DNA from: Octopus sinensis
Taxonomy: Eukaryota
Reading direction: 5' to 3'
DNA: 64,000 nucleotides
Assembly: GCF_006345805.1 (NCBI RefSeq)
Contig: NC_043014.1
Coordinates: forward strand, 496,001-560,000
Shown: piece by piece, positions 25,741 through 56,655 of the stretch
How the letters are laid out: every line of letters starts with the position of its first letter
How positions within the stretch are numbered: the first letter of the stretch is position 1
Notes under the pieces: generated by a model
The model's database searches: none
The model's input: only the letters and a program-made list of their open reading frames with translations
What the model was told of the DNA's origin: nothing
Program-made: the position numbers and the translations under genes

Positions 25741-25822
25741 TTAGTACAATTGTTTCATACTATAACAATTTATTAAGCTGCAAATATTACAGCAAATATA
25801 ATGTCAAGTAATCTTCAGCTAA
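25741..25822 (-). ncRNA. type I hammerhead ribozyme with extended stem II
   Basis: Minus strand: ttag-CTGAAGA-ttac...gctgtaatatttgcagc...gtat-GAAA-caattg-TA-ctaa. Same family as 56565 (shared flanks). Confidence 0.75.
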
Positions 25823-26003
25823 TTTCATATAGGTTTTCCAAACATCTTAGAGGGTGTAAATATACTTATAAAGTTATAGAAGTGAGTTCCAGGAACTTGA
25901 ACTAATTAAATTAAGAACTTTGTATTGTTGGAAGGTATATATGGTCTGCTTGGAATCTTGCTTCAAGTTCCTGGAGCTCACATCTATACATACATACATA
26001 CAT

Positions 26004-26066
<63 letters not shown>

Positions 26067-26109
26067 TACATACATACATACATACATACATACATACATA
26101 CATACATAC

Positions 26110-27265
26110 TGACTATTGGCTGTAAAGCGCTGTGCCCACAATATATTGCTACACAGATGGCTTTCTGCTGTGCAGCAAAATCTAGCACTTAAACACTGCA
26201 GCAGTGTAAAACCACTCCTGCAGTGATCTCTCAGGAAGATGCAGAACACTTGGTGGCAGGATTTTGCTCGTGATGTTCAGGCTGCTGCTGATGCAAATGA
26301 CAGCAAGAAGCTTTACCATCTTATGAAGCAAGTTTATGGGCCTAAGAGCTCCTTTGCTTTCCAAGGAGTTTTCTACTCGATTTACTAAATCAACAGAAAC
26401 CACAGGATTGAACACTTCTCTGAACTCTGAAACAACGAGTCAGTTGTGGATGAAACAGTGATTGATGCTATGCAACAAAGACCCATCATTGGCTCCTTAA
26501 ATTCTACACCCTCAATAGATGAGGTAATAACCTCAATAAGTAAATTGAATCTTGGTAGGGCACCTGGAAAGGATGGAATTTGTGCTGAGGTCTTGCGATT
26601 TGGTGGTAATTGCATCACACAGTCCCTTCATGAACTTATTAGTGCAGTCTGGAGGGATGGTGCAATCCCTAAGGACTGGAAGGATGCAATTATTCTACCT
26701 CTATATAAAGGAAAAGGAGCCAGAACAATGTGTGGTAACTACAGAGGTATTGCTCTGCTATCAGTTGCTGGCAAGATTCTGGCAAATATTCTTCTTACCC
26801 GTCTGAATGGGTGTCATGTAAATGATGTCCTATCTGAATCTCAATGTGGCTTCCAATTTGGTAGAGGGACAATGGATATGATTTTCACAGCAAGACAGAT
26901 GCAGGAGAAGTGCTATGAGCAGAATATGGATCTTGTCCAGGTATTCATTGATTTAACTAAGGCCTTTGATATTGTAAATAGAGCCTTTCTATGGAAAATA
27001 CTTGGCAAACTTGGATGTCCGGATCACTTTGTATCTAAAATTAAATTATTCCATGATGGGATGGAGGCTTGAGTCAACGGGACCCATTCCTGTAGAGAAT
27101 GGTGTCAAGCAGGGTGACATCCTTACCCCAACACTCTTTTCTTTGTACTTTGCTGCTGCTTTTACTCATACTTTTGCTAAGGTTAGCTCTCTGAGAATAT
27201 ATGTCAGATATCGATCTGGCTGCCTCTTCAATCTGCAATGATTTTCTGCCAATTCAAAAGTTTGC
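26110..27265 (+). mobile_element. RTE (BovB-like) LINE RT fragment
   Basis: ORF 26446-27072: RAPGKDGI, WKDAIILPLYKGKG..CGNYRGIALLSVAGKIL, ESQCGF..GRGTMDMIF, FIDLTKAFD; followed by GVKQGD. Confidence 0.9.
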
Positions 27266-27439
27266 TGCCACCCCTCCAGCATCTTTCATACATATATCAC
27301 TGCATATCCCTCCACTTCCGTCTTCACTCCAGGGATTAGAGTCTTACCTCTTTCAGTCTCTCCCAGTAGCCAAGTTGTTCCATTGATGCAATCTTCCTCA
27401 TGTAGTATCTCTGAACTGCCTCCTATTAATCCTACAGTG

Positions 27440-27860
27440 TAAGGTGACCATAGTTGAAAGCAGTATTCTAGATGGCTGAGGACAAATGTCCTTCACAGGA
27501 CCAGCATAGTTTCTGGTTCCTTGTTCTGAAGGTTCTCAGAATCCACCTGCACAATGCCACCATCTTGGTAACATGCATGTGAAATGAGGCATCGTTGCTC
27601 ATATCAATCCCCAGATAATGCACCATATGTGATTCTAGGATTTCCACTAGTTTTGGTCCAAAGTATTGTTGTTGTGACTTCTGAGCACCAATTAGCTGGT
27701 AGTGGAGGGCTTGGAATTTGGCTACATTAAATTGCATGTTGTCCTCAGCCCATATATATATATGGCTTCTAGATCTCTCTGTAGAAGATTAGCATCAGAA
27801 GGTTCCTTGACTGCTTGTACTACTTTTGTATTGTCAGCATAGCTAGTAAGTGTGGCTATC
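27440..27860 (-). mobile_element. CR1-group LINE fragment
   Basis: AEDNMQFNVAKFQAL...LGIDMSNDASF...WILRTFRTR. Confidence 0.8.
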
Positions 27861-27938
27861 TGTGTAACTCATGGCCACACCTGTCTTTGTCTTTTGTTAT
27901 TTTTGTAAATTCCAACTATATGTATATATACATATACA

Positions 27939-27987
<49 letters not shown>

Positions 27988-28000
27988 GTGTGTGTGTATG

Positions 28001-28043
<43 letters not shown>

Positions 28044-28089
28044 AATACATGTTTATATATGTGTATATATAATTATATATACATGTTTA

Positions 28090-28134
<45 letters not shown>

Positions 28135-28166
28135 GTATATATATACATAAATATATATATACACAC

Positions 28167-28200
<34 letters not shown>

Positions 28201-28390
28201 CAAACAAGAAAATGGAGAAACAATTTAATTGGTTCATCAGCTTTTGGATATTAGAATGTTGACTTATTTATTTATTTAACAAAAACGAGAACCTTAATAA
28301 CATACATACATACAGAATAATTCAATAGATATAAGATAAGAATACAATTATAAAAATCTTAATATAAACAATTGAAATCATTAAAATCAC

Positions 28391-28513
28391 TCTTACAGCT
28401 GTTTCAGCCTATGGAAAAAAGTATTTTTTCAATGCCTGCAGTTGTCAATTATATTGAGGTTGTAGGCATTTAAAAATAGGGTACTTATATATAACCATAG
28501 GCCTCGTCAGAGA
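28391..28513 (-). ncRNA. type I hammerhead ribozyme with ~100-nt structured stem II
   Basis: Minus strand: tct-CTGACGA-ggcctatgg...[aatgcct...aggcatt hairpin]...ccataggct-GAAA-cagctg-TA-aga. 9-bp stem II base; same family as 61020. Confidence 0.75.
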
Positions 28514-29700
28514 TTATAAAGAACTTAAAAAATATAAATACATGAAACAGGATACATGTACAATTTAATATATATAAATATAAACAAATATCCATATATA
28601 CATACACACACATATATATATATATATATACATACATAAGCAAAGTATATACACCTTTACATGTGTATAAATACATAAATAAGCACAATTAAACCATAGG
28701 TCCAAGCAAATAGACCATTTGTCATATACATATATACTGGAACATATACGTCCATGCTCATGACTACATAAACAATATTTAATTGTTGCTAATATAATTA
28801 TTATTATTATTATTATTATAATATTTATTATTATTATTATTATATTTATTATTATTATTATTATTATTAATATTATTGTTATTATTATTATTATTATTAT
28901 ATTTATCAATAATAACAATATTATTAGATTTAGAGTAATCTTCACTTCACAATACATATTATAATAGATTCCAATATATCATATATTGCAATACAATGTA
29001 AACAATTCATTACTGTAGATTAAATTTTATAAATTTTAAAGCCACAATCAATACAAAACAGATATATATATATAAACATACATTTAGACCAGGGTTGTTA
29101 CAATATTGTTCTTCTTCATACACACAAGTCCATGCATATGGGCAACAAAAAGAAGCAACATGTACATATATATACATACGTACAAACATACATCAATATC
29201 TATATGAGGATTTTTTTCTTCTTATCGTCACAGTTAAATTATATGTTTATCCATCGAATTAATATGATTTCACAGAATATTTTTACAGAATATTTCATAA
29301 TAAGAAAACGTTTGTTAAGATATAATAGATAAGCTATAAGAGCCATGTTATATGTTATATATTAATATTTTAGAGTTTTAAAACTATTGGGAGATAGGGA
29401 GTGATTGTTTTTAATCATAAGTTATATCTAATTGGTTAACAAATTTGAATTTCTACATCTCAGCTACGGTTAGTTAATAGAAGATCGAATGATAAGTAAA
29501 TAAACCGTGTTAATCTCTCATAGTCACATTTATATCCTTAAATTAACTTTCAAATATTAATCGTAAACAAAGAATTCTTATAATAAGCAATATAAGTGTC
29601 AGTTAATACATGAATATTTATCTACAAAGTTTAATAAAGCATATAAAAATTCAACCATGTTATATAAATTTTATATATATGTATATACACATATAGACAT

Positions 29701-29731
<31 letters not shown>

Positions 29732-29849
29732 CACATATACATATATATAAATACATATCACATACCACAAACGTATATCCATTGATATCCCTTAGTGGGT
29801 TGGATCCATAACCCCTAACTTACTTGGCGGTATATTTATATATATATAA

Positions 29850-29891
<42 letters not shown>

Positions 29892-29892
29892 G

Positions 29893-30050
29893 ATTCTTTC
29901 AGTTTCCATTTACTGTATCTACTCAAAAGACTTTGGTTAGGTTGGAGCTATAACAGAAGACACTTGCCCAAGGTGCCATGCAGTGGGACTAATGCTGTAA
30001 CCATGTGGTTGAAAAGCAAACCTCTAACCATAGAGCCATGCCTGGGCCTA
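29893..30050 (-). mobile_element. tRNA-head SINE 5' part
   Basis: Reverse-complement homolog of the 18350 SINE head (ttctttcagtttcc...gaagacacttgcccaaggtgccatgcagtgggact). Confidence 0.7.
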
Positions 30051-30230
30051 CACACATTTTCATTATGTTATGTAAAAGACAGTTTCTTTTTCACACTTGT
30101 GGTATTAAATAAATTGCCATACTTCCTATTCTTTATTGTACACAAACTAAACACTCCCTAATACAGTTCTATATTTGAGAGATGAACGGATTATTTACAT
30201 TATTTACATTTGACGGATATTTGTCCTCAT

Positions 30231-30467
30231 CTTGTTTGTTGTTAACACGTTTTGACTGATATACCCTCCAGCCTTCATCAAGTGTCTTGGGGAAATTTCA
30301 AACCTGGGTTTTCATTCCTAAGGTATTTTTCGTTGCTGTTGTTGTTATTATTATTGTTACATTGAAAAATACCTTAGGAATGAGAACCCAGGTTTGAAAT
30401 TTCCCCAAGACCTTTGATGAAGGCTGGAGAGTATATCAGTCAAAACGTTGCGTTAACAATAAACAAG
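30231..30467. repeat. ~100-bp-arm inverted repeat, each arm with a decayed hammerhead-like motif
   Basis: Arms 30231-30331 and 30364-30467. Both read TTGATGA-aggctggagRgtatatcagtc-AAAAcgt, a core with C3>T and G12>A. Confidence 0.7.
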
Positions 30468-30534
30468 AAATGTAAATGATAAACACTCCCTATTGTAATT
30501 ATATACATATCTACATCCTTGGTATATATATATA

Positions 30535-30574
30535 CTAGTAGCTTAAAAGCTACCATACTGGGCAGCTTTTAAGC
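30535..30574 (-). mobile_element. Helitron/Helentron-type 3' end
   Basis: Minus strand hairpin gcttaaaagct-N12-agcttttaagc followed by taCTAG|T. Confidence 0.45.
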
Positions 30575-30927
30575 AACTGACCCTGAATGGGAAGATCTGC
30601 AAACAGGTCTCTGACTTGTTTTGGAGAATTCGTTGCAGTTGCTTCCTCCAGAGTCATATCCAAATGATGATCATATCCGTCACAAAGAATCATGTAAAAA
30701 AAAATGCCGAAAACAATCGCAGTAACGAAAACATAGGAATCTAAAGTCTCTGGATTTGGCCCAGAATGTTTTTAATTTACTAACTGAGTCAGCCTCATTC
30801 CAAAATGGTGGGATATGTTGTAAAAGTGTGACACACTTTTATTATATTAGATTTGTTTCGCTTTGGGGAAACGTTATTTCAATTAAAGTGTATTTTGTGT
30901 GTGTGTGTATATATGTATATATATATT

Positions 30928-31131
30928 GGCGTTAGGAAGGGTATTTGGCGTTAGGAAGGGCATTTGGCGTTAGGAAGGGCATTTGGCTTTAGGAAGGGCA
31001 TTTGGCTTTAGGAAGGGCATTTGGCTTTAGGAAGGGCATTTGGCTTTAGGAAGGGCATTTGGCGTTAGGAAGGGCATTTGGCGTTAGGAAGGGCATTGGC
31101 ATTAGGAAGGGCATTGGCATTAGGAAGGGCA
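30928..31131 (+). repeat. 18-19-bp G-rich minisatellite (ggcgttaggaagggcattt) x about 11, running into a (GAT)n-tailed element
   Basis: Direct reading. The last unit continues as ggaagggcatccagctgtagaaac...gatgatgat to about 31263. Confidence 0.9.
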
Positions 31132-33169
31132 TCCAGCTGTAGAAACACCACCAGATCTGACTGGGCCTGATGAAGCCTTCCGGCTTCACAGACCCCAGTT
31201 GAACCGTCCAACCTATTCTAGCATGGAAAACGGACACTAAACGATGATGATGATGATGATGATACATATATATATATATACAAATTAAAGAAAGCAAAAT
31301 ATAAAACAGATAGTGTTCAGTCTGTTGGCCACAGGAATGTCTATCAAAGAGATATGGTTAAACAAAGTTGTACATCATCTCCCTCTTCCTCTCTCTCTTA
31401 TTATTACTCCCACTGCCACCATCAATACTACTACTTTTAAAACATCAACTCTCCCTGAATTTCTTTGTCTCTTTCTCTCTCTCTCTCTCTGTATTGTCTT
31501 CGCCACTGCCCCCACCATCTCTATGCTTACTATTACTCTCACCCCATCATGAGGAATAGTAGGAGTGTCATTGAATTGTAAGAGAGGGGGTCAAATTGTG
31601 ACTCAATGACACACAGGAATTAGTTTTCGCATTTTTATATTAGATGTAGAGTATACACTTCCTGTGTTATATACACACCATCATCTCTCTACTCCACCGC
31701 CCCCTTAGTCCATAACAATAAAACAAATGTGTCTTTTAACCAAACCACTGCTTATATCACATTCATAGTTAGACATGGTGAGCATGGGGGTGGGTGGGGT
31801 GGAGTGAAGAGGGTTGTAAACCCTCCACCCCACCCCCTCTGTCAACTCACTGCATATATAATTATTCAATTTTTATTTTAATTCTTTGTTTACCACAGCT
31901 AACTAAACAACCAATGGTGGATCTATTTTAATAACTGAGATCTCCACCACAATTGAAATCTTGTTTCCATGTATCTCATATACATATTTCGTGTTCATTT
32001 TTGACATTTTCAAGTGCTCGGTTCCTTTAGAAGTGTAGAAAATTAAAGTGAACAGCACAGAGATGAAGTACTTGCCAGTCTCCCGTTTCATTTCCTGCCA
32101 ACTTCAGATAAATTTCTTCCGTACAAGGAAACACACAAATTGTGAGTACAGAGTTAAAAAATAAAAAATACCCAACATTGATACAATGAAAAGAGTTCTT
32201 TAAATGATATTGGTAGAAAATAAGGTGTGGATCATATGCTGTAAAAATGGATAGAAATGTTTTCTTGTTTTACAAAGTCAACTGTATAATTTGTAGTGTA
32301 GAAAGTGTTTGTATATATCGGGTAAATTAGAAGGGTGGTGTATATAAATTCTTGTTTATAACTATAAAGATAACGATTCTAGCAACGAAGAACAAAAAGC
32401 AGAAAATGTAAAATGAAATGGGTAGGAATTAACAAATGACAAATGCAGGATCTTCTTCAGGTTAATGTGTGCCATGTTTTGTCTGATTCTATTCAGTTGA
32501 GGCTAAACAAGGGCTTGTGTTAAGTGAAAAGGTATGTGAGAGAGAGAGAAAGAATTTCTTTATTCACCATAAGGTTGAGAAAAAGAGTGTGCGATACGAG
32601 GACAGACAAAACAAACATTGGGGTCAGGGGATCGAATGAGACGAAAATTATGAATAAACAAACAATTAAAATATATACAATTAAATGAGAATGAGTGATT
32701 AAGAAAAAAATGAAGCGGAAGATGAGAGAGAGAGTGAGAGAGTGAGAGAGAGAGCTAAGTAAGAGTAAGTTGCTCATGGTTGCTGCTATGTCAAGACATT
32801 GCTACGTGACCCCAGCAATGAAACTGTAACGATGTCAGCAGGTAAACAAGATCCCTCTCCTCCTTCACTTCCCTCATTATCATCATTGTTATTGTTGATT
32901 GGCAGGGAAGCAGTGATTGATATAATGAATATGTGAAATTCCTAATGGCCAAGAGGTGATCAGAGACTCCACACCTGCATATTGTAAAATAAAAAATGAG
33001 AGTTCTGTGCATGCAAGAGTTCTTGTGTTTGAATGGCCCAGTTGCAAGATCGGAATTATAGCAACTTCAGCCAGAAATCTAGAACTGCTGGCACTCTTCA
33101 ATAATAATGAAATTATTGTATACAGTGCTCAGGTGCTCCACAACTTGTCAAAAGTGCATATAAAGCATA

Positions 33170-34625
33170 TGCAGTAATGTACAAATGTCTGGGAAGTGAA
33201 CAGTGTATGAGTCAGATACATGCTTGTGTGTGTATGGAGGGGAGAAAATCAGGTGTAGTGTTGGCGAATCTCAGAAAGCATGGAAGTTTTGAAGGATGCA
33301 GTGCTCCGACAACTAACAACTGATGCCGGCAGTTTGTTCAGCAACTCTTAACGTGAAAAAATGTTTCTGAAAGTCATGGGAGCTGTGCTGCTTTCTGACT
33401 TTGTAAATATGTCCACGGGTGTTGAGTTTCAGACACCCCTTGGTCACTTTTTTTGTCAAACCCACAGTAAACTGGAGATTGGCTTTGTAGAAACCTGTAA
33501 ATATTTGGGTGATCAGGATTGTCTAGAGGAAGAGGCAGAGCCAAAGGTATTTGCTGGGCTCCCTAGGCTGATGAGATTGAGGTTGTTTGTGGAACTTGTA
33601 GGAAAGAAATGAGCAGGGATGTGATTCGAAAGGGCAGATATTCTAGGGGCGAATGACTAAGTGTGGAGCCTGGTAAGGGTAGGGTGTATACAGCAATGGG
33701 GATGCTGGTCAGTGGAGAAGTGGGGGAGGGGTTGTGAGTGGATGCTGTATTGTTGGGGAATGTTAGGGAGGAATTGAAGGAATGGAAAGACAAGAGGCAC
33801 AAAAATGCATGAGATCAGCTAGATCTGCATAGCAGAGATCATTACAGAATTGGTAAAAATGACAAAGGGAAGACACAATACATATGTCTGTGTGGGCAGG
33901 ATCTGTAGTGAGTCTGTGAATGATTTTTTGCCAATCAATAAATGGTCCTTTTCTGGATGTGCTCAATGATTTCTATACAGCAGTAGCAGAAGTAGTAGGG
34001 CCCCAGCTGTGGGCCTCATCTCAATTCTGTAGAGGATTAAATTATTGTGTAGCAGTAAAGACAAAAACCAACTGTTGGGAGGTAGTCCTAGCAATGTTAA
34101 TCATATGTTGACCCTAGAAGAGATCCTCAATGAAAGTGTGACCCAACATTTGTAGCAATTGTGAGGGCTCTAGTTGAGTGCTCCTCATGGTTTAGGGGAT
34201 GTGGTGCAATGATGTTTTCTTGATAGGAATGCTGCCTGTTTTTATTTGCTGTCAAAAGAGAGAAGAATGGCCTGGCCCCACTGGAAGATGCTTTTGAGGT
34301 TTCTGTTTCTGGCATCAGTGTGGGTTTGGTGTGTGGTGTCTGGGGTGGGAGTGGATGGTTGGGGAATGTTACGGAGGTATTGAAGGGTTGTGTCATCTGT
34401 GTAAGAGTAGGGGTCGTGGAATGTTGTGGCAATATAAGTCATAGATGTAGAAAGGGAAGAAAGTGGGGGAGAAAACTGAACCATGGGGCATGCCAGAGTC
34501 AGTAGAAAGAGGGACAGAAAGAACGAGATCCACATATGCCATGGCCATATGATCCAAGAGATGAAAGATGAACAAAGCCCATAGGCAGACTGATTTGATG
34601 GCAGATTTGCAAGCCAGGCACACTT
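33170..34625 (-). mobile_element. composite of decayed LINE pieces (RT-like, possible endonuclease-like, CR1-type 3' end)
   Basis: 34120-34620: SGMPHGSVFSP...YSYTDDTTL (RT motifs). 33170-33420: RGHIYKVRKQHSSHDFQKHFFTLRV (CR1 C-terminus). The middle part is only tentatively APE-like. Confidence 0.6.
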
Positions 34626-35344: not shown

Positions 35345-37521
35345 CTATCTATCTTTCTCTGAAGAACAAAGCAATTCAAAGAGTCTTAACAGTTCTATGT
35401 TGTTCTTGTTCTTGTAGTCGACATTAGGAAAACTTTGTAAATGTTTGGCTATCTCAGAACTGTTATTGCTGTTTATCAGAAAAATCTTTCCAGTTTTCAG
35501 TTTTCGGTTTTTCATAATTTCCACGGCATATTTCGTTTCAGATAAAATATCCTTGGAATAAAAGATTCCAATATGGCAGCTGTCTTCCATTACTTTATTA
35601 ACATTTACCATTTTTCCTATTCCTAGAGTGAAATCAGAGTCTCCGTAGCTAGTTTGCAATCCAAAATATGTCCCCAAACTCTCTGCTAGATGTTTAGCAT
35701 CACCATTATCACTTTTGGATGTTAAAATGTAGACATCATATTGAAAGAAAGGAATCTTTGATGAGCCAACACTACCTGCTTTGTGTTCAGATTCTTGGGA
35801 ATGGCCAAAGCAAAGTTTGTAATATTTTTTGAAAATTATCGTAGCTACCTTCTGTCTCTTTCCATAGAACTCTTTAGCATATTGAAGATAAATTGTTTTC
35901 CTCAGGTCGACATCAATTTCACTTTGTTGACAACCAGAAAACTCTAAATGGAGAAAAGCTTGTTGAAATTCCTCCTGTCGGCATAACAATCGTAATTTTT
36001 GTGAAAGTTCATTTCCACCGCATTCTTTGAGAAGTTTTGGGAAAATTCCCCCCTCATCAGGCAATTCTTTTATAGACTGAATTAATTTCATTAGATTACT
36101 TTTGTATTCGGTGTCAGCAAAGTTATAAATTCTTTCCATTATCTTTTTGATTTCCCAAATTTTTTTCTGTCTTTTATTGAGCACCAGAATCTCAGATAAA
36201 TGATTGATGGCACAGACAAACATATCCGTACCAACATCTATTAAATCTTGTTTCTCTTCTTCACTTTCTTTTTTGTCAGCCAGAAAAAAACAAAATTTTC
36301 CATATTGAATGAAGTATTTGATTTTGGTGTCCCAAATGTTCAAAACTGAAAAGTCAATATCTTCAAAACATTTCATCGCATTTTCATATTCGCGCACACT
36401 TCTGTATAACAAGGCTAGGTCATACATGACAGGTATATTCCGAGGATCCAGACTGTAAGCTTTTTTAAGATGGTATTCAGCCTTATCCACATTTTCATTT
36501 CTTTCAATATCAGGTATTCTCTCAGGACATTTTAATATTCGTTTTTCTACTTTTAATTCTTTTAGTTCTTCTGTTTCACAATTGGAGAAGGGTAATTCTT
36601 TAACGCACAAATCTTTGTATTCAGGAATTTGATTTTTATAAATAGTACCAAGACGATGATGTGAAAGTGAGGTCTCATTTCTTTTAATAGCTTCCTCTAG
36701 CAATTTCTGTGCATCTTCATACTTACCTATCGATAAATAGAAAGTAGCACTTTTTTCCATTACAAATCGGTCTTGGGGAAACATACTACAAGCCCTCTGG
36801 AAATATTCAATTGTTCTTGGAGTACGTATATGAAGAAATGGATGATTCTCAAGAGAGCCTAGCAAGCCAAAGTTTTAGCCATTAGATGATCATTAACATA
36901 ACAAGGATAATTAGAAGTAATTCTTTGAAGAATTTCAGTAGCTTCCTTTGAAGATTTTTCTATCTTTTCTTTATCATATAATATCCTCATCCTACGATAA
37001 ATTAGCAGAGCCAGGCGAAAAAGCCAAAAGTAATTGTTTGGGCAAACCTGAAGAGCTTCTTTGAAAAGTTCAATGGCACGTTGATAATGGTGAAAAGATA
37101 TTCTAGAAATGCAACAGGCAATTTCAGCTTTACCTCTCGCTTCCAATGAAGGGAAATTGGGGCTGCTTTTTAAAGTGTTCAGTTTGTCCAGCACTCTATC
37201 GACTTCAGGGAAATTTTCATAATGCACGAACATTAACGCTTGGTTTGTTAATGCCAACAAGTTATCCGGATCTTTTCCCAGTATTTCAATGGAGATTTCC
37301 TTGGCCAATATTTGCTCATGTAAAGTCCAAAGGAGGAAGACTTTAGCATGTTGGTTGCAAATTTCTTCTTGTAAATCAAGCAAAATCTCATTTCTTAAGG
37401 CATTTTCAACTTTTTGCAACTTGGCCTTAAGTGCATTCACTTTAAGGTTAAAACATTCTTCCAGCATGTTTGGAAATTCTTCAACTTTTATCCTGTAAAA
37501 TTTTATTTTTTCATCAGAGTT
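35345..37521 (-). CDS. TTC22/IFIT-like TPR protein with C-terminal TIR-like domain; large terminal exon with one frameshift at about 36862
   Basis: Polypyrimidine acceptor ttttcttttctttacccag| (exon starts at 37521, phase 0). TPR motifs DPDNLLALTN, ARGKAEIA, YQRAIELFKEALQVCPNN, AEYHLKKAYSLDPRN..YDLALLY. C-terminal YDVYIL.S..D...GL....DSDFTLG....N...MEDS..I...S resembles TIR boxes 1-2. Adding one T (gct-ttg-cta) fuses the ORFs into about 725 aa. Confidence 0.8.
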
Positions 37522-37661
37522 CTGGGTAAAGAAAAGAAAAAAATGTTAAACCTGTGTTACATCCCACTGTATTAATATTGTCATTATACAAGTGAGATTA
37601 ACTGCTAGAGGGGCATGAGAGGGGGAGAGGGGAAGAAACATGGGGGGGGGGAGTAAATGTG

Positions 37662-42582: not shown

Positions 42583-44690
42583 TCTCCTTAAATCCTTAAA
42601 ATGTTTTAGCCCGAAGGCCGCGGCCATGCTGGGCACACCACCGCTGAATGAGCCACACTAGTTTGTGAAATCCACCTCTGATACGTGGCACTTGATCAAC
42701 AAGGAGTTCGATGCTGCTGCCGCATCCTGTCCCGTGAGGTAGGTTCATCTGGACTTCCAACAAGAAGAGATCCAGTTTAGTTTTAAAGAAACCCACATCC
42801 ACACCATGTAAGTCTCTCAGGCATTTAGGGAGGATGTTGAAAAGCTGTGGTCCTCTGAAACCCAAGCTGTTGCAGTATCTGGACCTGTATTTTGATGGTG
42901 ATGTTGGAATCCTTGGCACCACGCAGCGGCGCCCCGTTCTGCGGTTGGAGTAACTTTGAATGCCAAAGTTTGGGATAAGACCCTCCAGGATTTTCCAGAT
43001 GTATATTACTGCATATCTCTCCCGCCTCCGCTCCAGGGAGAAGAGTTTTAATACCTTCAGTCTTTCCCAGTAGCTGACATTTTGCATTGAGACGATTTTC
43101 TTTGTGTAGCTTCTCTGAGTTGCTTCAAGTTCTGCTGTTTTTTTTATATTGTGTGGTGACCAAAGTTGGGAGCAGTAGTCCAAGCGGCTGAGGACAAATG
43201 TTTTCCATAGGACCATCAGTGTCTCCTTCTCTCTTGTTCTGAAAGTTCGGAGAATCCATCCAGCTAGCCGTCTGCATTTTATCACCAGATTAGCAATATG
43301 CATTGGAAAGATGCATCATTGCTCATGTCAATGCCCAGGTCACGCACTGATTTTGACTCAGGGATTGCAATTCTTCCTGGGCCAGTGTATCCAGTCTTCA
43401 CGTCATTTACCTTTGTGTGCCAGTAGCGCAGGGCCTGGAACTTACCTGCATTAAACTGCATGTTGTTGTCCTCAGCCCACCTGTATATTGTGTCCAGCTC
43501 ATGTTGCAGATGCGCAATATTTTCAGGGTTCTGTATTGCGTGGGAGACCTTTGTGTCATCTGCATAGCTAGCAAGGGTGGTCATCGTAGCAACTGAAGGC
43601 ATGTCTGAAAGGGCCACTATGAACATCAGTGGCCCCAAGACAGTGCCCTGTGGGACACCGCTTGTTATTTGCGTTCCCTGGAGGTGGCTCCATTGCTCAC
43701 AACTGCCTGTTTTCTGTCTTTTAGGAAGTTGTGCAGCCACTCTCCAAGTTTCCCGCCTATGCCGAGACCACGCAGTTTATGACAGATCATACCATGGTCG
43801 ACTTTATCAAAGGCTTTTGCAAAGTCAAGATATATTACATCCACATTTGAGCCATTTAGTAGCTGTTTCAACACCCAGTCATAGTGCTGGCAGGAGCTGT
43901 GTTAGGCAGCCTCTACCTGGTCGAAATCCATGCTGGGTGTCAGACAGTAAGTCATTTTCTTCAAGGAACATGATTAGTTTCTTACGGACTATTCGTTCCA
44001 TGACTTTGCTGATGTGTGAGGTCAGAGAGATAGGCCTATAATTTTTAGCATCTGCTCTGCTACCTCCCTTATGGATAGGGCATATTACCCCCTCTTTCAG
44101 TTTGACTGGGAGCTTACCACTTGCAAGAAAGCTCTGAAAAAGAAGCTGTAGCGGTTTTGCAAGGGCTCGTTTGCACGATTTGAGAAGGATCGCTGGAAAT
44201 CCATCAGGTCCAGCAGCTGAGTTTGTGTCAATCTCATCAATGGCTAGTGTGATATCATCTTCTTCGATGTTGATGTACTCAATTTTTGTCTCTTTGGCCG
44301 CTGGTAAAGTGGCAAAGAATTCTTCTGGGTTGTTTACTTGCCTGTGTCCTAGAGGTGTTGTGAACACACTTTGGAACTGTTCGTTCAGTATTTCACTTAT
44401 CCTCGTGGGATTTCCTGTGAGAGAGCCATCTTTTTGGAAGAGAGGTCCTATTCTCTGGTGCACTGTGGCTGTCTCTTTGGCAAACTTAAAGAAAGCTTTA
44501 GGGTTTGATTTTATATTTTCTATTACCCAAGCTTCTTTATCTGCTCTCTCCTTTTCATGGGACTGATGTAGACTTTTCTCAGTTTCCATTAGCATTCTTT
44601 CGAGCCGAGACTTCTCACCACTTTTGGTGTGCTTGCTCAGGCGGTTTGCAATCCTTGTCCGTCGTCTCATAAGAATCCTCCTTTCTCTAG
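42583..44690 (-). mobile_element. 5'-truncated CR1-group LINE (RT and C-terminus), frameshifted
   Basis: SAAGPDGF, NYRPISLTS, QHGFRPGR, YLDFAKAFDKVDH, GVPQGTVLGP, YADDTK, LERRRERY; flanked on both sides by (TA)n tracts. Confidence 0.92.
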
Positions 44691-44691
44691 G

Positions 44692-45074
44692 ATATATATC
44701 TATACATATATATATATATATTATCTATATATATATATATATCTATATATATATATATATCTATATATATATATAATCTATATATATATCTATATATCTA
44801 TATATATATATATATCTATATATATATCTATATATATATAATATATCTATATATATATATCTATATATATATATCTATATATATATATCTATATATATAT
44901 ATCTATATATATATCTATATATATATATCTATATATATATATCTATATATATATATATATATATATATCTATATATATATATCTATATATGTATCTATAT
45001 ATATATATATCTATATTATATATCTATATGTATCTATATCTATATATCTATATATGTATATATATATATATATC

Positions 45075-45366: not shown

Positions 45367-45398
<32 letters not shown>

Positions 45399-45454
45399 CT
45401 ATATATATATTATATCTATATATATATATACTATATAATATATATAATCTATAT

Positions 45455-45503
<49 letters not shown>

Positions 45504-47678: not shown

Positions 47679-47711
<33 letters not shown>

Positions 47712-48052
47712 ATATATATATATTATCTATATATATATCTATATATATATCTATATATATATATATATCTATATATATCTATATATATATCTATATATTA
47801 TATATATATAATATATTATATAATAGAAATATTAAAATAACTAAGTCTCTCTAAAAGAGAACAGCGGCAGCGTTCCCGGAAAATAATAGTTATCGCCATA
47901 CTAATATGGCATTCTTATAAAAATAAGAAAAAAGCTGTCCGCTTATTAGCTCCATGAGGCCATCGCCTTAAGTTAGCTATTTGATACACAAACTGTATCC
48001 ATATAACCTTCGAACAAGGGAGGTCAGTCGCTCCACACTACTTGACCGGCAG

Positions 48053-48092
48053 CTACAGACGCGTTTCGGGGTATTGCCCCTTTTCAATGCAG
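48053..48092 (-). ncRNA. minimal hammerhead ribozyme, U3-A8 variant (left arm)
   Basis: Reverse complement of 48159-48198. Confidence 0.75.
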
Positions 48093-48158
48093 GTAAAACT
48101 AGGTAAATAAAACCATCGAACAGAGATTGTCGGAAGCGACACCTACTGGCTGGCTACG

Positions 48159-48198
48159 CTGCATTGAAAAGGGGCAATACCCCGAAACGCGTCTGTAG
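48159..48198 (+). ncRNA. minimal hammerhead ribozyme, U3-A8 variant (right arm)
   Basis: ctgca-TTGAAAA-gggg caata cccc-GAAA-cgcg-TC-tgtag. GUC cleavage triplet, palindromic stem III. Confidence 0.75.
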
Positions 48199-48362
48199 CT
48201 GCCGGTCAAGTAGTGTGGAGCGACTGACCTCCCTTGTTCGAAGGTTATATGGATACAGTTTGTGTATCAAATAGCTAACTTAAGGCGATGGCCTCATGGA
48301 GCTAATAAGCGGACAGCTTTTTTCTTATTTTTATAAGAATGCCATATTAGTATGGCGATAAC

Positions 48363-48401
<39 letters not shown>

Positions 48402-48652
48402 TATATTATATATATATATATATATATAAAATGAGATAGGGGTTGAAAATTCAACCCCCATGATATGATATAATTACATATTATATTTTATATTTTATAT
48501 TTCTATTTCCTTGTCTAATTATATTTACAATATATTTTGTATAATGCCTTTACTGTTATGTAATGGTGTAATAAAGTATTGATTGGGTATCATCTGATGG
48601 TTGATGTTTGATTGATTTAAGTATGTTTCTCCATTTTGTAATTTTGTAGTAT

Positions 48653-48684
<32 letters not shown>

Positions 48685-48759
48685 CATACATACACCTCTG
48701 CCACTATCTGGCATATACAGGTGCTTACACTTATCAAGTATTCACCCTAAATTTACAGT

Positions 48760-49297
48760 ACCTACATATATATATACATATATATATATACATATATATA
48801 TATATACATATATATATACATATATATATACATATATATATATACATATATATACATATATATATACATATATATATATACATATATATACATATATATA
48901 TATATACACATATATATATATAACTATATATATATACACATATTATATTACACATATATATATACATACATATATATATACATATATATATATATACATT
49001 ATATATACATATATAATATATACATATATATTATACTATATAATATATATATAATATATATATACATATATATATATAACATATATATATATATACATAT
49101 ATATATATAATATACATATATATATACATATATATATAATATATATATATTATATAATACATATATATATATATAATATATATATATATACATATATATA
49201 TATAATACATATATAGTATATATATACATAATATATATAATACATATATATATATATATACAATATATATATATATATACATTATAATATATAATAC

Positions 49298-49332
<35 letters not shown>

Positions 49333-49361
49333 CATATATATTATATATACATATAATATAT

Positions 49362-49399
<38 letters not shown>

Positions 49400-49594
49400 C
49401 ATATATATATAATATATATATATATACATATATATATACAATATATATATATACATATATATATACATATATATATATATATCATATATATAATACATAT
49501 ATATATATATATAATATATATATATATACTATATATATATATATATACATATATATATACATATATATATACATATATATATATATATACATAC

Positions 49595-49662
<68 letters not shown>

Positions 49663-49665
49663 TAC

Positions 49666-49698
<33 letters not shown>

Positions 49699-49734
49699 AC
49701 ATATATATATTATATACATATATATATATATTAC

Positions 49735-49825
<91 letters not shown>

Positions 49826-49925
49826 ACATATATATATATATACATATATATATATAATATACATATATATATTATATACACATATATACCATATATATAT
49901 ATATATACAATATATATATATATCA

Positions 49926-50019
<94 letters not shown>

Positions 50020-50120
50020 TTATATATATATATACTAATATATATATACTATATATATATATACATATATATACTATATTATATATATATTATATATATA
50101 ATACATATATATATATATAT

Positions 50121-50163
<43 letters not shown>

Positions 50164-50204
50164 TATATTATATATATATATATATATATTATATAATTAT
50201 ATAT

Positions 50205-50261
<57 letters not shown>

Positions 50262-50362
50262 CATATATATATATATATTATATATATATATATATACATA
50301 TAATATATCTATAATACATATTATATATATATAGTATACTATATATATATACATATATATAC

Positions 50363-50393
<31 letters not shown>

Positions 50394-50416
50394 ATATATA
50401 TTATATATATATATAT
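48760..50416. repeat. (TA)n/(TACA)n tract, about 1.6 kb
   Basis: Direct reading. Confidence 0.95.
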
Positions 50417-53400
50417 ACTCTTTTACTTGTTTCAGCCATCCGGCTGAGGCCATGCTGGGGCACCGCCCTTGTTGCTACCCTCTCTAAGTCCAGTTTGCCG
50501 TGGCTGGCCACTGATCTAAGAGAGAGTTTGTAGCTGCTGCCCTTAGGTTACCTTCGTACCTTGCAGTGAGTTCATCTGGGATCCTGGAAAGCAGCTTGTC
50601 TAGATGTTTTTTGAAAATGTCCACATCCGCATCATGTAGATCTCTTAGTTTTCTTGGCAGTTTGTTGAACAGCTGAGGGCCCCTGAACCCCAGGCTATTA
50701 CAGTATCTGCTCCTTACCCTGGATGTGGAAGACGGGACCTTTGGCACCACACAGTGACGTCCTGTACGGGGATTGGAACAGCTCTCAATTCCAAAATTTG
50801 GTGCTAGTCCCTCCAGGATTTTCCATATGTATATCACTGCATATCTCTCTCGTCTTCGTTCCAAGGAGTACAAATTGAGTTCCCTAAGCCCTCCCAATAG
50901 TTCTTTTCTTTCATGGTGGAAATCCTCTTGGTGAAATGTCTTTGGATTGTCTCAAGCTCTGTGGTTAGTTTGACACTATGCGGTGACCACAGTTGGGAGC
51001 AGTAGTCCAGGCGGCTTAGGACAAATGTCCTCCATAGTGTCAACATGGTCTCGCAGTCTCTTGTCCGGAATGTCCTCAGGATCCAGCCAGTGAGTCGTCT
51101 GCACATTGTCGCCACCTTCGCGATGTGTGAAGAAAAAGATGCATCGTCACTCATGTCTATCCCCAGGTCCCGTATTGATTTCGATACTGGGATTTCGATC
51201 CTTCCTGGACCAGTATAGTTGTGTTGTAATGTATATGTGTTTACAGCTTGATATTGTAAGGCTTGAAATTTACCAGCATTAAATTGCATGTTGTTGTCTT
51301 CAGCCCATTTGTATATGGCATCCAGATCTTGTTGTAAAAGGTCAGCATCAGCTGGGTTTTTGATTGCCTGTGCTACCTTTGTGTCATCAGCATAGCTAGT
51401 GAGGGATGTTGTTTGTGCTACCAAGGGCATGTCAGAGAGCGCCACCAAAAACAGCAAGGGTCCCAAGACTGTGCCCTGTGGCACCCCGCTTGCTATTGGT
51501 GTCTTTCCCGAGAGGGCTCCATTGGCTGCAACCATCTGGCTTCTGTCCTTCAGGAAGTCATGTATCCACTCACCTACTTTTCCTGTTATGCCGAGTCTGA
51601 GTAATTTGTGACATATCACTCCGTGGTCGACTTTGTCAAAGGCCTTCGCAAAGTCGAGATATACCACATCCACCTGTGAGCGATCCAGTAGTTGTTTCAG
51701 TACCCAGTCGTAGTGTTGTAACAGCTGCGTAAGGCAGCTTCTTCCTGGGCGAAAGCCATGCTGTGTGTCAGTGAGACGGTTAGTTTCTTCGAGGAACGTG
51801 ATGAGTTTTTTTCTGATGATTCGTTCCATGACCTTACTTATGTGTGACGTCAGGGAGACTGGCCTGTAGTTTTTGGCCTCTGCTCTACTCCCTCCTTTGT
51901 GGATAGGGCATATGGTGCCTTCTTTTAGCGCCCTGGGCAGTTTACCATTAGCCAAGGAACCACTGAAGAGCTTCTTCAGTGGTCCCGCTAGGGCATGCCT
52001 GCATGTTTTTAGGAGGACTGCTGGGAATCCATCTGGTCCAGCAGCTGAGTTTATTCTCATTTCTTCTATGGCAGATATTACATCCCTCTCTGTTATGTCT
52101 ATGTGGTCGATGGTTGTTGTTTGGTTTTGGAGTGTTGTGGCATCAAAGAAAACTTCTGGGTTTGTGATTTGCATGTGCCCCAGAGGGGATGTGAACACAC
52201 TTTTTACTGTTCCTTTAGTATTTCACTTATCCCTTGGGGTCCTCAGTTAGAGAGCCCTTTTTATCAAGAGTGGGCCAATCTTGCAGTGTACCGAGGTGGT
52301 TTCTTTCGCAAATTTAAAGAAGGCTTTAGGGTTTGTTTTAATATTCTCTATGGCCCTGGCTTCTCTCTCTACCCTCTCCTTCTCATAGGAAAGTTTGAGT
52401 GCAGTTTCCGTGCATTCAGTTGCTTCGAGAGCTTAGCTCTTCGCCTCATAAGTATTTTCCTGTCTCTGGGAATAACGTTCCTATGCCCGCTGGCTTTTTT
52501 CTCCGGGACAAACTTATGGCATATGTTCTGTATTGTTGTCATGAAATGTTGGAAATGTGTGTTGGTGTCTTGTGTGGTGATGAAGTCACTCCAGTCATGT
52601 TTTCGGATCTCTTCGTTGATCTTCTTCCAGTTTGCCTTATGGAAGTTTAGACTGGATAGGCCTGTGGTATTTTCTAATGGCTGCGTCTCAACTAACTCTC
52701 TCATACCATATATCATTACCTCTACTAAGTTGTGATCTGAGAGAATTGTTGGTGTTACCATTATGTTGTGGATGAGCATCGGGTTGCTTGTGAAACAGAG
52801 GTCCAAGACATTCTCACCTCTTGTTGGCCAAAGCACTGCTTGCTCCATGAAAAACTTGCGTGTGAGAGCCAACAAGGACTCTGTCTGTCTCTGTTCAAGT
52901 GATGTCATTCCAGGGAGGAGATGGCCATCTGGCCATTTGACTTTCGGAAGGTTAAAATCTCCCAGCAGTAGAATGGTGTTACCCTGGTCCAGTTTGTCCA
53001 GGACTTCTTCTATTCTTCTGAGGCTATCTTCAAACACTCCTTCATGACTAGGGGTGTCTGGTGGCCGATATGTGACACATATTACTATTTTCGGTTGTTT
53101 CATGTGTACTATCAGTGTGTCACAGACTGAGTTTGAGTGTGTCAACAGTACTATGGGTGTGACATCTTCACGGACGTACAGGGCAACCCCACCATGAGTT
53201 CTTTCCTTCCTGTCCGACCGAAAAACAGTATACTTCGGTATGTGTATTTCTGCATCTGCTATACTGCTTGACAGGTGCGTTTCAGTCAGCGCTATGCATA
53301 TTGCATGGTTGCTTGTGCTCAAGTCCCTAAGGTAAGGAATTTTACCCATATTAGTGGGTTTCACCAGACCTCTGACATTCAGCAGAAGCACTGGTGAGAC

Positions 53401-54350
53401 ACCCGGGTGTCAATAAAGGCTGACGGTGTGTTACCTGGGCCGGCGTCAGCGGTGGCCACCCTGGGTCCCTTGATTGTGGTGGTCTTGAGTGCTGTTGTGA
53501 GTGCCCCTGGCTCTGAAGACGATGTATCCAGGCCAGTTGTCCCACAATTTTCTCTGCCATTTCCACAAAATTTCTTTGTTCTGCTGCCGCCGTCTGCATT
53601 TCCTCTGCAAATGTGCGCCTTCTCCTTGTTGGGGCATTACGCACTATGTCTGCATATTTCTGGGGCAGCTTGTATTTGTTCTGGTTTTGGTTAAGGCATT
53701 TTGGTCGAGTGGGTTTGATGCAATTTCCATAGGGCCTGGGATGAGCGAACCTGCATCCTTCCCCTGTTTCTCCATGCCAGCAGGTTCCATTCCGGAAGAA
53801 TTTGCATGTTATCTGGGTTTCTTGTCCCCAGTTCCTCTCTGTTTTTTCTCCTCCGTTGGACGGTTGTCCACTGGTTCCTTTCTGCATAGGTCTTTTCATC
53901 CGGGTGGTTATTTTCTGTTTCCCCATCGCCGCCTATCTGTTGTTTGCCCTGCTTGCCTTCTTCGACTGTGGCAGTGGGCGTGTCATTTTTTGACACTCTG
54001 TGGTTGGTGTTTCCTGTTTCCATCTCTCTCTCTTTGTCTTTGTCCACCTTGAGGACTTGGCTTAGCAAAGCCATGTGTGGTGCAATGAGAGTGTAGGCCC
54101 TTTCGACTTCTCTTTTCTTCCTCTCTACTTGCGCCAACGTCCTCATAAAGCCATGGCTTTTCAGGGTCGCCGCTATGTTTTTAGTTGGTTGCGATCTGTC
54201 GGCCGAGCTCCATCCTCTGATGAAAACTTCCAGCTCTACTTTCGTCCAGTTACGCTGGCTTTTGTTGACACCAGTGTTTGCATTCACCTCTAATTTTTGC
54301 ATGTTGTCCATTCCGTTGTAGCGGGGAGAGAGAGAGAAGCTGTGAGGGAA
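50417..54350 (-). mobile_element. near full-length CR1-group LINE (ORF1 plus APE-RT ORF2)
   Basis: ORF2: LLLNVRG, LTETHL, HGGVALYV, YRPP, LLGDFNLP, LDLCF, SDHN (APE, 52369-53391); RT 50834-52198; C-terminus 50484-50897. ORF1 53351-54311 with one frameshift. 3' tail ggcggtgccccagcatggcc...gaaacaagtaaaagag. Confidence 0.93.
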
Positions 54351-54470
54351 AAAGGGAGAAGGGAGGAGAGATGAAGAGATTGTGATTGTGAGGAAGGGAG
54401 GAATTATATTATATTATATTATATTAATTTATATTAATCTAATAGTGCAATAGGGGGGTAGGGAGAAAGT

Positions 54471-55745
54471 AGAGAAAGGGAGCGTCTATGTACTTAAGGA
54501 GAAATTGGGAGCCGAGAGTAAGAGAGAAGAGGAAGAGGAGAGACTGAGAGCTGAAGGAAGAGAGAGAAAGCGTCTATGTCCTTATATGTATCCGAGAGAG
54601 GAGAGTAAGTTAGAAGAGAAAGGGAGCGTCTATGTACTTAAGAAGAAATTGGGAGCCGAGAGTAAGAGAGAAGAGGAAGAGGAGAGACCGAGAGCTGAAG
54701 GAAGAGAGAGAAAGCGTCTATGTCCTTATATGTATCCGAGAGAGGAGAGTAAGTTAGAAGAGAGAAATGGAGAGACAAGGAGAAGCGGGAGAGAAACTGA
54801 AGAGATAGAAGAGAGTAATGGAGAGACAAAGAGAAGCGGGAGAGAAACTGAAGAGATAGGGAGAGAAGGAAGAAATATAGAGAGAATTTATATATTTGAA
54901 AGAGGGGAGTAAGATAGAATGAGAGCTATGAAGAGACAAGGAGAAGCGTGAGTGAGAGAAACTGAAGAGACAGACAGAGAGAGAGAGAGAGGGGAGAATT
55001 CTAAGCGAAGCTATTTGTACACACACACACACACGCGTATACATACATACACATACACACATATACACATGTGTGCACACGCACATATATAAACAGTAGT
55101 ACCAAGTGAGTATATAAAGAAACAATAATAATAATAATGAAATAGCTGAAAGAAAACAATCCAAGAGATTTTACAGAATTTAAGCAGAGAAAAAGAGAAA
55201 AGAAAATATGTATTTGTCGCTACAGACAATGTATTCTAAAATAAAAAATAAAAACTAATTGCGACTATACTTTTAACACACACATATACATACACATAGA
55301 GATTTTACAGAATTTAAGCAGAGAAAAAGAGAGGGGAGAATTCTAAGCGAAGCTATTTGTACACACGCATACACATACACACATATACACACGTGTGCAC
55401 ATGCACATATATAAACAGTAGTACCAAGTGAGTATATAAAGAAACAATAATAATAATAATGAAATAGCTGAAAGAAAACAATCCAAGAGATTTTACAGAA
55501 TTTAAGCAGAGAAAAAGAGAAAAGAAAATATGTATTTGTCGCTACAGACAATGTATTCTAAAATAAAAACTAATTGTGACTATACTTTTAACACACACAT
55601 ATACATACACATAGAGATTTTACAGAATTTAAGCAGAGAAAAAGAGAAAAGAAGATATACATTTGTCCGTCGCTAAAACAATGTCTTCTAAAAATAATTG
55701 CGGCTATACTTCTAACACACACATATACATACACATAGATATATT
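54471..55745. repeat. tandem duplications upstream of LINE ORF1 (2 x 144 bp purine-rich; about 2 x 340 bp plus partial copies)
   Basis: agagaaagggagcgtctatgtacttaag at 54471 and 54615; ggggagaattctaagcgaagctatttgtac at about 54990 and 55333; gagattttacagaatttaagcagagaaaaagag four times. Confidence 0.85.
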
Positions 55746-56564
55746 ATTATTTTCTGTTTGAAAGAACACTAATGATAACAAAATAAGTAATATTTTTTTT
55801 TTCCTTACCTTACCGGCTGAGAGAGAGTACTTACGCGATTCCCTTTTATGAGAAAGGAAGATAGATAGACAAGACAGACCTTTTTTTCCCCAAGCGCACT
55901 TTGTAAACAAAAGGGATTTGAGTTTCGATTTAGCACGTGCAACAGTTTGAGGAATACTTTCTGTATTTCCCTAAGCGATTTGGTATTAAGCAGCAAATTT
56001 TTCAGAGGCTTTTTTCAGAACACGCAGATATACATCAAAAACGAAAATATCCTGTGTCTTGTTGATTCACAGACGAAGAATAAAATTCACTTCGATTTCG
56101 GGAAAGTAACACACGTGCGTTTTAACACGTGTATTCGCGAGTATGTTCTAGTTGCAAAACACTATATCAAAAGCGAAAATATTCTTCTCAAATACAGTGA
56201 CTTGTACTTTCACTTATATTCGCTTTGCAGACAATTTCGCTTCTGATAACATCGATCTCTGGAAGGACTTGTTTAATGTTTAGGAGAGAGACGTTAACAC
56301 ACTTGTTGTTAGTTCAGCGCCATCTTTATACATATATATATATATATGTCTTCTGTGAGTATATAATCCCTCATCATATCTATGGAAATTCATATGGATT
56401 AGGTCACCTTCTCTGTGATGCTATCAAAACTTTTTTAAAATTCTGTGATAAGACTGTACATCATCTTTAAAGAACTTTAATGAACTTTAGAAATCTGTTT
56501 AATTATCTACATTACTTCATGAGTATAGCCTCAAACACTAGGATGTCTAGAGAACTTACATGTA

Positions 56565-56655
56565 TTTTAGCTGATGAGTACGGGACTCGTTTATATGCTG
56601 TAATCTTTGCAACTTTTAATAAAACCTGTCCTTGTATGAAACGATCGTACTAAAA
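56565..56655 (+). ncRNA. type I hammerhead ribozyme with extended stem II
   Basis: ttttag-CTGATGA-gtacgggac...gtccttgtat-GAAA-cgatcg-TA-ctaaaa. 6-bp stem I, palindromic stem III. Confidence 0.8.

What the first reader, a model, noticed from the sequence alone, without database searches (positions are those of the whole stretch)
25741..56655. Compensatory stem III changes between two homologous long-stem-II hammerheads
Seen: 25741-25822(-) and 56565-56655(+) share flanks (upstream ctaRgatgtYtRgaRaacYtaYatg; downstream atccattcttgttgctt running into (TA)n) and an internal gctgtaat.tttgca.c hairpin. Stem III differs (caattg versus cgatcg) yet both remain perfect palindromes, and core and stem I (ttag/ctaa) are kept. 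Inference: the double substitution preserving the palindrome points to selection on ribozyme structure, probably dimeric stem III pairing, during the family's history.
Basis: partly seen in the sequence, partly recalled or inferred. Interest (0 to 1): 0.7.

Follow-up and report, generated by a model that had tools for sequence, protein, structure and literature searches.

The report
Hammerhead palindrome evolving through wobble steps
Both motifs are hammerhead-ribozyme sequences at the tail of a jumping gene with thousands of copies in this animal genome, and across its subfamilies the short self-matching arm changed one letter at a time without losing its match, which likely means the RNA must pair with a second copy to cut itself, a mechanism already known for such elements.

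Summary
Observation confirmed. Both motifs are complete type I hammerheads with a 55-60-nt stem II, at the 3' end of 5'-truncated copies of a Penelope-like retrotransposon with Hydra-clade motifs (unit 4,549 bp; 6,591 such motifs genome-wide against 8 in the control). Genome counts are CGATCG 3,172, CAATTG 2,754 and the G.U intermediate CGATTG 2,413. The mismatched CAATCG (266) is at the level of decay controls (143, 223) and sits in old copies. On a tree built without stem III, copy B's lineage runs A-U, G.U, G-C. All 14 subfamilies keep self-pairing, but only 11 are perfect palindromes. A tree-aware simulation gives p = 0.006-0.043 for stem III and p <= 0.0006 for stems I-III. So self-complementarity, not a perfect palindrome, is likely under selection, fitting the known dimer cleavage of Penelope hammerheads; cleavage itself is untested. 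The long covarying stem II is not in the papers searched, but this scan noted it before on other DNA. Verdict: a variant of a known kind, with unusually clear evolutionary evidence.

The parts
25707..25985 (-). Copy A: 5'-truncated 3' end (pLTR) of the Penelope-like element, subfamily A, with a short inverted piece at its 5' side; lies between (TATG)n and (TA)n
   Evidence: 5' limit approximate
25741..25822 (-). Type I hammerhead A: stem I ttag/ctaa, core CUGAAGA and GAAA, U.U at 10.1/11.1, predicted cut after 25745
25757..25811 (-). 55-nt stem II of A, with distal hairpin 25793-25777
25747..25752 (-). Stem III hexamer CAATTG (A-U state of pair 15.3/16.3)
56347..56686 (+). Copy B: 340-bp 5'-truncated 3' end (pLTR) of the youngest subfamily, flanked by (TA)n on both sides
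56566..56654 (+). Type I hammerhead B: stem I tttag/ctaaa, core CUGAUGA and GAAA, G.U at 10.1/11.1, predicted cut after 56649
56578..56637 (+). 60-nt stem II of B, with distal hairpin 56597-56613
56642..56647 (+). Stem III hexamer CGATCG (G-C state of pair 15.3/16.3)
56687..56739 (.). (TA)n target joined at the family's first fixed 3' end, 37 nt after the predicted cut

Best explanation
The two motifs are hammerhead sequences in the terminal repeat of a high-copy Penelope-like retrotransposon with Hydra-clade motifs, and their stem III stayed self-complementary through single-letter steps via a G.U wobble, likely because the ribozyme is predicted to cut as a pair in which stem III forms between two copies. 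Shown: the anatomy, the carrier element, the copy counts, the stepwise path and the covariation. Inferred: in a transcript through a full element the upstream and downstream repeats, 4.55 kb apart, each supply one hammerhead. Their stem III strands pair into an 8-bp duplex, both sites are cut, and a unit-length RNA is released. That RNA is probably ligated to a circle and copied by the element's reverse transcriptase from a nicked (TA)n target. Only master copies whose stem III still pairs kept spreading. Solitary fragments such as the two in this window have no partner in cis and decay neutrally.
For: Carrier: locus L062 holds two direct repeats with the B hammerhead around RT and GIY-YIG reading frames. 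26 of 30 copies that keep the ORF start have an upstream repeat containing the whole hammerhead. Counts: G-C 3,172, A-U 2,754, G.U 2,413, A.C 266; 1,207 A.C would be expected if the two positions were independent; single-decay controls are 143 and 223. 27 of 28 A.C copies printed lie in old C/D-type flanks, and in 7 of 7 loci with an inverted sister copy the sister has G at 15.3, so A.C arose after insertion. Tree without stem III columns: B's CGATCG clade (13 rows, 99/94) nests among CGATTG copies (29 rows, 95/84), which nest among CAATTG copies. 14 of 14 subfamilies pair at 15.3/16.3 and at the centre; simulation p = 0.006, 0.019, 0.043 for kappa 2, 4, 8 (fitted kappa 2.9), and p <= 0.0006 for stems I, II and III together. 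On 22 natural copies 94.5% of cells pair, 7 of 19 pairs change on both sides, and slid registers give 24-56%. In one molecule pair 15.3/16.3 would close a 2-nt loop. Computed duplexes are -10.0, -6.4 and -5.8 kcal/mol for the three common states and +0.3 for CAAUCG; the G.U state also pairs well with both neighbours (-7.9, -6.1) while the two palindromes pair poorly with each other (-1.9). Dimer and circle models: PMC4209133.
Against: No cleavage or RNA-end data. Stem III alone is only modestly significant, from about seven subfamily-level changes, and three groups are small (E 1 copy, D2 and A0 3 copies with a 2:1 majority). The sample is the first 100 of 6,591 matches and the pattern fixed C15.2, G16.2 and the following TACT. 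The tree has few columns and is unrooted, and copy divergence does not fall strictly along it (B4 0.026-0.028 against A 0.008-0.017). Invertebrate retrozyme hammerheads with two pairs and a tetraloop in stem III cut well as monomers (PMC7229834, passages). Every integrated copy spans the cut site intact and 0 of 30 ORF-start copies begin at it, so there is no direct footprint of cleavage. Minimal Penelope hammerheads cut poorly in vitro even as dimers (PMC4209133). CGGUUG, seen in 3 of 98 copies, gives only a -1.8 kcal/mol duplex.
Confidence: 0.65

Rival explanations
1. The hammerhead cuts as a monomer with a 2-bp stem III and a tetraloop. The first and last loop bases covary because they form a closing pair of a 2-nt loop, and the long stem II supplies the stability.
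For: Two pairs plus a tetraloop suffice in invertebrate retrozymes (PMC7229834, passages). Most genomic copies are solitary or inverted, so they lack a partner in cis. Tetraloops with an outer pair exist (recalled, no call).
Against: The centre dinucleotide is AT or GT in 14 of 14 subfamilies, which can pair only across two molecules. The monomer stem III scores +2.4 kcal/mol against -5.8 to -10 for the common duplexes. No loop I exists to make the canonical tertiary contact.
Confidence: 0.17
2. The fold is selected as a binding or dimerisation signal for the element's RT/endonuclease rather than for cutting.
For: All integrated copies span the cut site uncut and both fixed 3' ends lie downstream of it. 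The long stem II covaries although catalysis does not need it. Craig et al. state that hammerhead function in EN+ elements is unclear (PMC8557442).
Against: The catalytic core CUGANGA/GAAA/UA is kept in all 14 subfamilies, though the search pattern required it. An intact cut site is also what a ligated circle would give.
Confidence: 0.12
3. Neutral drift: a few master copies happened to take transitions that keep pairing, and amplification inflated the counts.
For: Few independent events. Transitions dominate, and three of four purine/pyrimidine combinations pair. One of the two passages (G-C to A-U) follows the direction of C>T and G>A decay.
Against: The simulation conditions on the number of changes and on transition bias and still gives p <= 0.0006 for all stems. 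The passage A-U to G-C in lineage B runs against decay. CpG excess in the sample is weak, 23 of 493 against 116 of 4,019.
Confidence: 0.06

Closest known systems
Hydra clade of C-terminal EN+ Penelope-like elements, including Hydra-1_Obim (Craig et al. 2021, PMC8557442; seen: abstract, passages, supplement parts 1-2 of 59 and search hits)
   Same: RWK and DKT motifs, CxCX5C linker, CxxC and CxH in the endonuclease, (TA)n insertion, pLTR with partial tandem and inverted 5' copies, type I hammerhead near the 3' end with self-complementary stem III; U at both 10.1 and 11.1 is common in File S2.
   Different: Stem II region is 55-60 nt here; the Hydra rows of File S2 have 3-7 bp stems with 3-10-nt loops. 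The unit is 4,549 bp against 'generally <3 kb' (Hydra-1_Obim 2,507 bp), with Asn-rich stretches and a 3' UTR of about 1.5 kb. The tail is about 115 nt rather than 30-40 bp.
[quoted passage not shown]
   Same: Type I, located in the pLTR, palindromic 15.2-16.2 and loop 3, covariation among families, proposed dimer cleavage and circular template.
   Different: Helix II there is 6-8 bp and G10.1-C11.1 is conserved; here it is a multi-segment arm closed by G.U, U.U or A-U. I saw no stepwise subfamily path in the parts read.
Repeat-type dimeric hammerheads (Perreault et al. 2011, PMC3088659, passages and Fig. S8 legend; Lunse et al., paper not held, seen only as cited in review PMC6765202)
   Same: Palindromic stem III and loop III that allow a dimer; U10.1-U11.1 is tolerated.
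   Different: No long stem II in the passages read.

Membership tests
Type I hammerhead ribozyme | Core CUGANGA, GAAA and UH in order | tested here: met
Type I hammerhead ribozyme | Stems I, II and III in core register, open at stem I | tested here: met
   covariation in all three stems
Type I hammerhead ribozyme | Pair at 10.1/11.1 (usually G-C; U.U is a tolerated variant) | tested here: inconclusive
   U.U in 8, G.U in 5, A-U in 1 of 14 subfamilies; U.U variants are described (PMC3088659; File S2 of PMC8557442)
Type I hammerhead ribozyme | Tertiary contact between stems I and II | not tested
   no candidate contact was searched for systematically
Type I hammerhead ribozyme | Self-cleavage at the UH site | not testable with these tools
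   needs a bench assay
Dimer-type PLE hammerhead | Short self-complementary stem III and loop III | tested here: met
   14 of 14 subfamilies; 90 of 98 copies
Dimer-type PLE hammerhead | Two copies in direct tandem on one transcript unit | tested here: met
   26 of 30 ORF-start copies; L062
Dimer-type PLE hammerhead | Cleavage depends on the partner copy | not testable with these tools
   needs a bench assay
Hydra-clade PLE | RT followed by a C-terminal GIY-YIG endonuclease | tested here: met
   (GLYRDD, then VIY..YIG); Pfam GIY-YIG E=0.0021, 18.8 bits, below the 22.6 cut-off, and no Pfam hit for the two RT pieces
Hydra-clade PLE | N-terminal RWK and DKT motifs | tested here: met
   IRWK, ADKT
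Hydra-clade PLE | CxCX5C linker; CxxC and CxH in the endonuclease, no CCHH | tested here: met
   read by eye from the translation against the description and the alignment
Hydra-clade PLE | Insertion into (TA)n; hammerhead in the pLTR | tested here: met
Hydra-clade PLE | Single intact ORF | tested here: inconclusive
   the copies read are broken into several frames
Hydra-clade PLE | RT falls inside the Hydra clade on a tree | not tested
   published Hydra proteins were not available as loadable sequences

The most novel reading that the evidence does not exclude
This protein-coding retrotransposon is copied from a 4.55-kb RNA circle made by paired hammerhead cleavage and ligation. The enzyme primes at two fixed sites behind the sealed cut (about +37 and +135 to +160 nt), one for each end of an inverted insertion, and the long conserved stem II is the handle that binds the element's protein or gates the cut.
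Probability: 0.3. Interest if true: 0.72.

Novelty: new variant of a known kind. Interest (0 to 1): 0.43.

Why it matters
Whether hammerheads in Penelope-like elements do anything for the element is open; Craig et al. raise the possibility that they merely parasitise it (PMC8557442). A series of 14 subfamilies in which core-adjacent pairs stay paired, and in which stem III passes twice through G.U and is never fixed as A.C, is evidence that the fold is selected during transposition. It also supplies natural allele pairs (CAAUUG, CGAUUG, CGAUCG, CAAUCG) for a clean dimer assay, in a family young enough to have at least 40 identical copies. The principle (palindromic stem III, dimer cleavage) is already known, which caps the interest.

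Tried and rejected
Rfam: no hammerhead hit among 82 matches at E<=1; the long stem II likely defeats the models. Free folding of the single motifs gave weak z-scores (-1.7 and -0.9) and, for A, not the hammerhead fold. RNAalifold on 86 gapped rows returned no structure. First guess of a Naiad element: rejected, since the endonuclease is C-terminal. First guess that U.U at 10.1/11.1 marks copy A as decayed: rejected, since it is the family state and common in Hydra elements. The first tree included poorly aligned upstream columns and placed B differently; it was replaced. Expression: no RNA holder listed on record; four guessed-RNA contig sets covered 28-30 of 30 bins of the element but showed no end pile-ups and cannot show ends, so this is no evidence either way. 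A pile-up of 5' ends at the cut site was sought and not found (0 of 30). The element's RT piece has no similarity to the neighbouring LINE RT (best E=0.33). Literature searches found no paper on long-stem-II Hydra hammerheads or on a wobble path among subfamilies; subscription papers, including Lunse et al., are not held, and bioRxiv supplements are closed. R-scape was not available.
Full report
Observation. A core scan found both as type I hammerheads with 55-nt and 60-nt stem II regions and perfect palindromes CAATTG and CGATCG in stem III; the regions align at 77% over 233 bp. Flanks and hairpin match the description. Rfam lists no hammerhead among 82 hits at E<=1.

Carrier. Both are repeats. 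B gave 1,423 candidates, and the central match of all 40 scored was 100% identical. A gave 1,842 candidates, the 40 scored at 94-100%. Copies share the 3' end at (TA)n and are cut at variable 5' positions, often with an inverted piece. [quoted passage not shown] The motifs RWK, DKT, CxCX5C, CxxC and CxH and the (TA)n target match the Hydra clade as defined by Craig et al.. The host is an animal genome of 2.72 Gb; earlier AI notes call it octopus-like, which I did not test. The published Hydra hammerheads have short stems II (File S2).

Family size and stem III states. A gapped pattern found 6,591 long-stem-II motifs against 8 for the control. I fetched the first 100 listed, 98 after removing overlaps: CGATCG 27, CGATTG 26, CAATTG 26, CGGTCG 8, CAATCG 4, CGGTTG 3, others 4. 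The pattern fixed the outer C and G. Genome-wide 15-mer counts were CGATCG 3,172, CAATTG 2,754, CGATTG 2,413 and CAATCG 266, with controls of 2-13. Independence predicts 1,207 CAATCG, though copies are not independent. Two single-decay products of CGATCG that no sampled subfamily has fixed give 143 and 223, the same order as CAATCG. Of 30 CAATCG loci, 28 central copies passed a flank filter: 27 lie in old C/D-type flanks and one in A0. In 7 of 7 loci with an inverted sister, the sister has G at 15.3; one direct tandem pair shares the mismatch. The mismatch state is therefore decay after insertion.

Path of change. A tree of 128 rows without the stem III columns forms a ladder: CGGTCG, CGATCG, then CGATTG and CAATTG, a single CGATCG copy, the A group (CAATTG), then the B lineage CAATTG, CGATTG, CGATCG. 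Copy A sits in the A group and copy B in the last clade. The pair thus moved between G-C and A-U at least twice, each time with a G.U subfamily next to the change. The tree is unrooted and short; direction is inferred from copy divergence (0.098 in C2, 0.008-0.028 in A and B). I assigned 119 of the 128 rows to 14 subfamilies by hand from that tree. The 9 rows left out were one duplicate, two outliers, five intermediate A rows and one CATTTG copy.

Selection test. For pairs whose register is fixed by the core, all 14 subfamilies pair at 15.2/16.2, 15.3/16.3 and the centre; 11 are perfect palindromes. Stem I shows C-G to U-A and G-C to U-A, stem II A-U to U-A and G-C to A-U. My simulation placed the observed number of changes at random on the subfamily tree: p = 0.006-0.043 for stem III, 0.002-0.028 for stem I, 0.009-0.049 for stem II pairs 2-4, and <= 0.0006 combined. 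It is not R-scape. On 22 hand-picked natural copies, 94.5% of cells pair and 7 of 19 pairs change on both sides; the count of such pairs alone did not beat shuffles (57 of 500), while slid registers fell to 24-56%. The distal hairpin, whose register I read from folds, keeps 5 of 7 pairs in all 14 subfamilies; one pair is broken in 5, including B. CpG excess is weak (23 of 493 against 116 of 4,019).

Mechanism. In one molecule pair 15.3/16.3 would close a 2-nt loop and the centre could not pair; between two molecules all eight positions pair. Computed duplexes are -10.0, -6.4 and -5.8 kcal/mol for the common states and +0.3 for CAAUCG. The wobble state pairs with both neighbours, which pair poorly with each other, so a new allele could work beside its parent. 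A partner exists in cis: 26 of 30 copies that keep the ORF start carry an upstream repeat of 124 to over 1,370 bp containing the whole hammerhead (two pairs among them share breakpoints and may be duplicates). None of the 30 begins at the cut. Of 179 copies, 107 end near the first junction (98 of them 34-39 nt after the cut) and 72 run on into the 5' UTR (64 meeting a microsatellite 112-162 nt after the cut); 37 of 41 inverted pairs have one end of each kind. Both ends lie behind the cut, so the template was uncut or re-ligated. This fits the circle model of Cervera and De la Pena but also an uncut tandem template. Cleavage, dimer dependence and circles are inferred, not shown. A monomer with a 2-bp stem III remains possible.

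Comparison and verdict. Palindromic stem III, dimer cleavage and covariation among families are published for Penelope hammerheads (PMC4209133, parts 1-2 of 4; PMC3088659, passages; PMC6765202, passages). I also read part 1 of 5 of bioRxiv 10.64898/2026.07.22.740005, which links retrozymes to pLTRs. The long stem II and the wobble path were not found in seven literature searches. Earlier notes of this scan already describe long-armed Hydra hammerheads in this and another genome. What this finding adds is the stepwise path, the decay control and the selection test. New variant of a known kind; interest 0.43.

Noticed in passing
window 63639-63707 (+): A third hammerhead of another repeat family (2,054 candidates) with a 46-nt stem II and a 10-nt stem III palindrome, perfect in 15 of 21 copies parsed; (TA)n follows about 120 nt later. 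A long stem II thus occurs in a second family.
   Followed up: partly
window 24344-24377 (-): Short-stem-II hammerhead with a 7-bp stem I and an odd-length self-complementary stem III, inside an inverted repeat at about 24190-24530 within the long (TA)n array.
   Followed up: no
window 61024-61142 (-): Core-like match with a 100-nt spacer and a palindromic hexamer; weak stem I, may be chance.
   Followed up: no
L062:2638-2763 and 72 copies: The family has two fixed (TA)n-joined 3' ends, each preceded in lineage B by a similar TTGCT box; 37 of 41 inverted pairs use one of each.
   Followed up: partly
L062:4250-5200: Long Asn-rich, low-complexity stretches between RT and endonuclease lengthen the protein relative to published Hydra elements.
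   Followed up: no
window 5952-7799 (+): Exons that read like a SMAD MH2 domain (name recalled, not searched).
   Followed up: no
window 18966-20342 (-): Single-exon 458-aa ORF that reads like a SAMHD1-type HD-domain protein (name recalled, not searched).
   Followed up: no
window 35345-37545 (-): Two adjacent long ORFs that read like a TPR protein with a C-terminal TIR-like domain, apparently without introns (names recalled, not searched).
   Followed up: no
window 26431-27850, 42596-44724, 50484-53932: LINE-type RT and endonuclease fragments, related to each other at 66-76%.
   Followed up: no
window 30253-30441 and 23656-23758: Long near-perfect hairpins (inverted repeats) that match miRNA models below their thresholds.
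   Followed up: no
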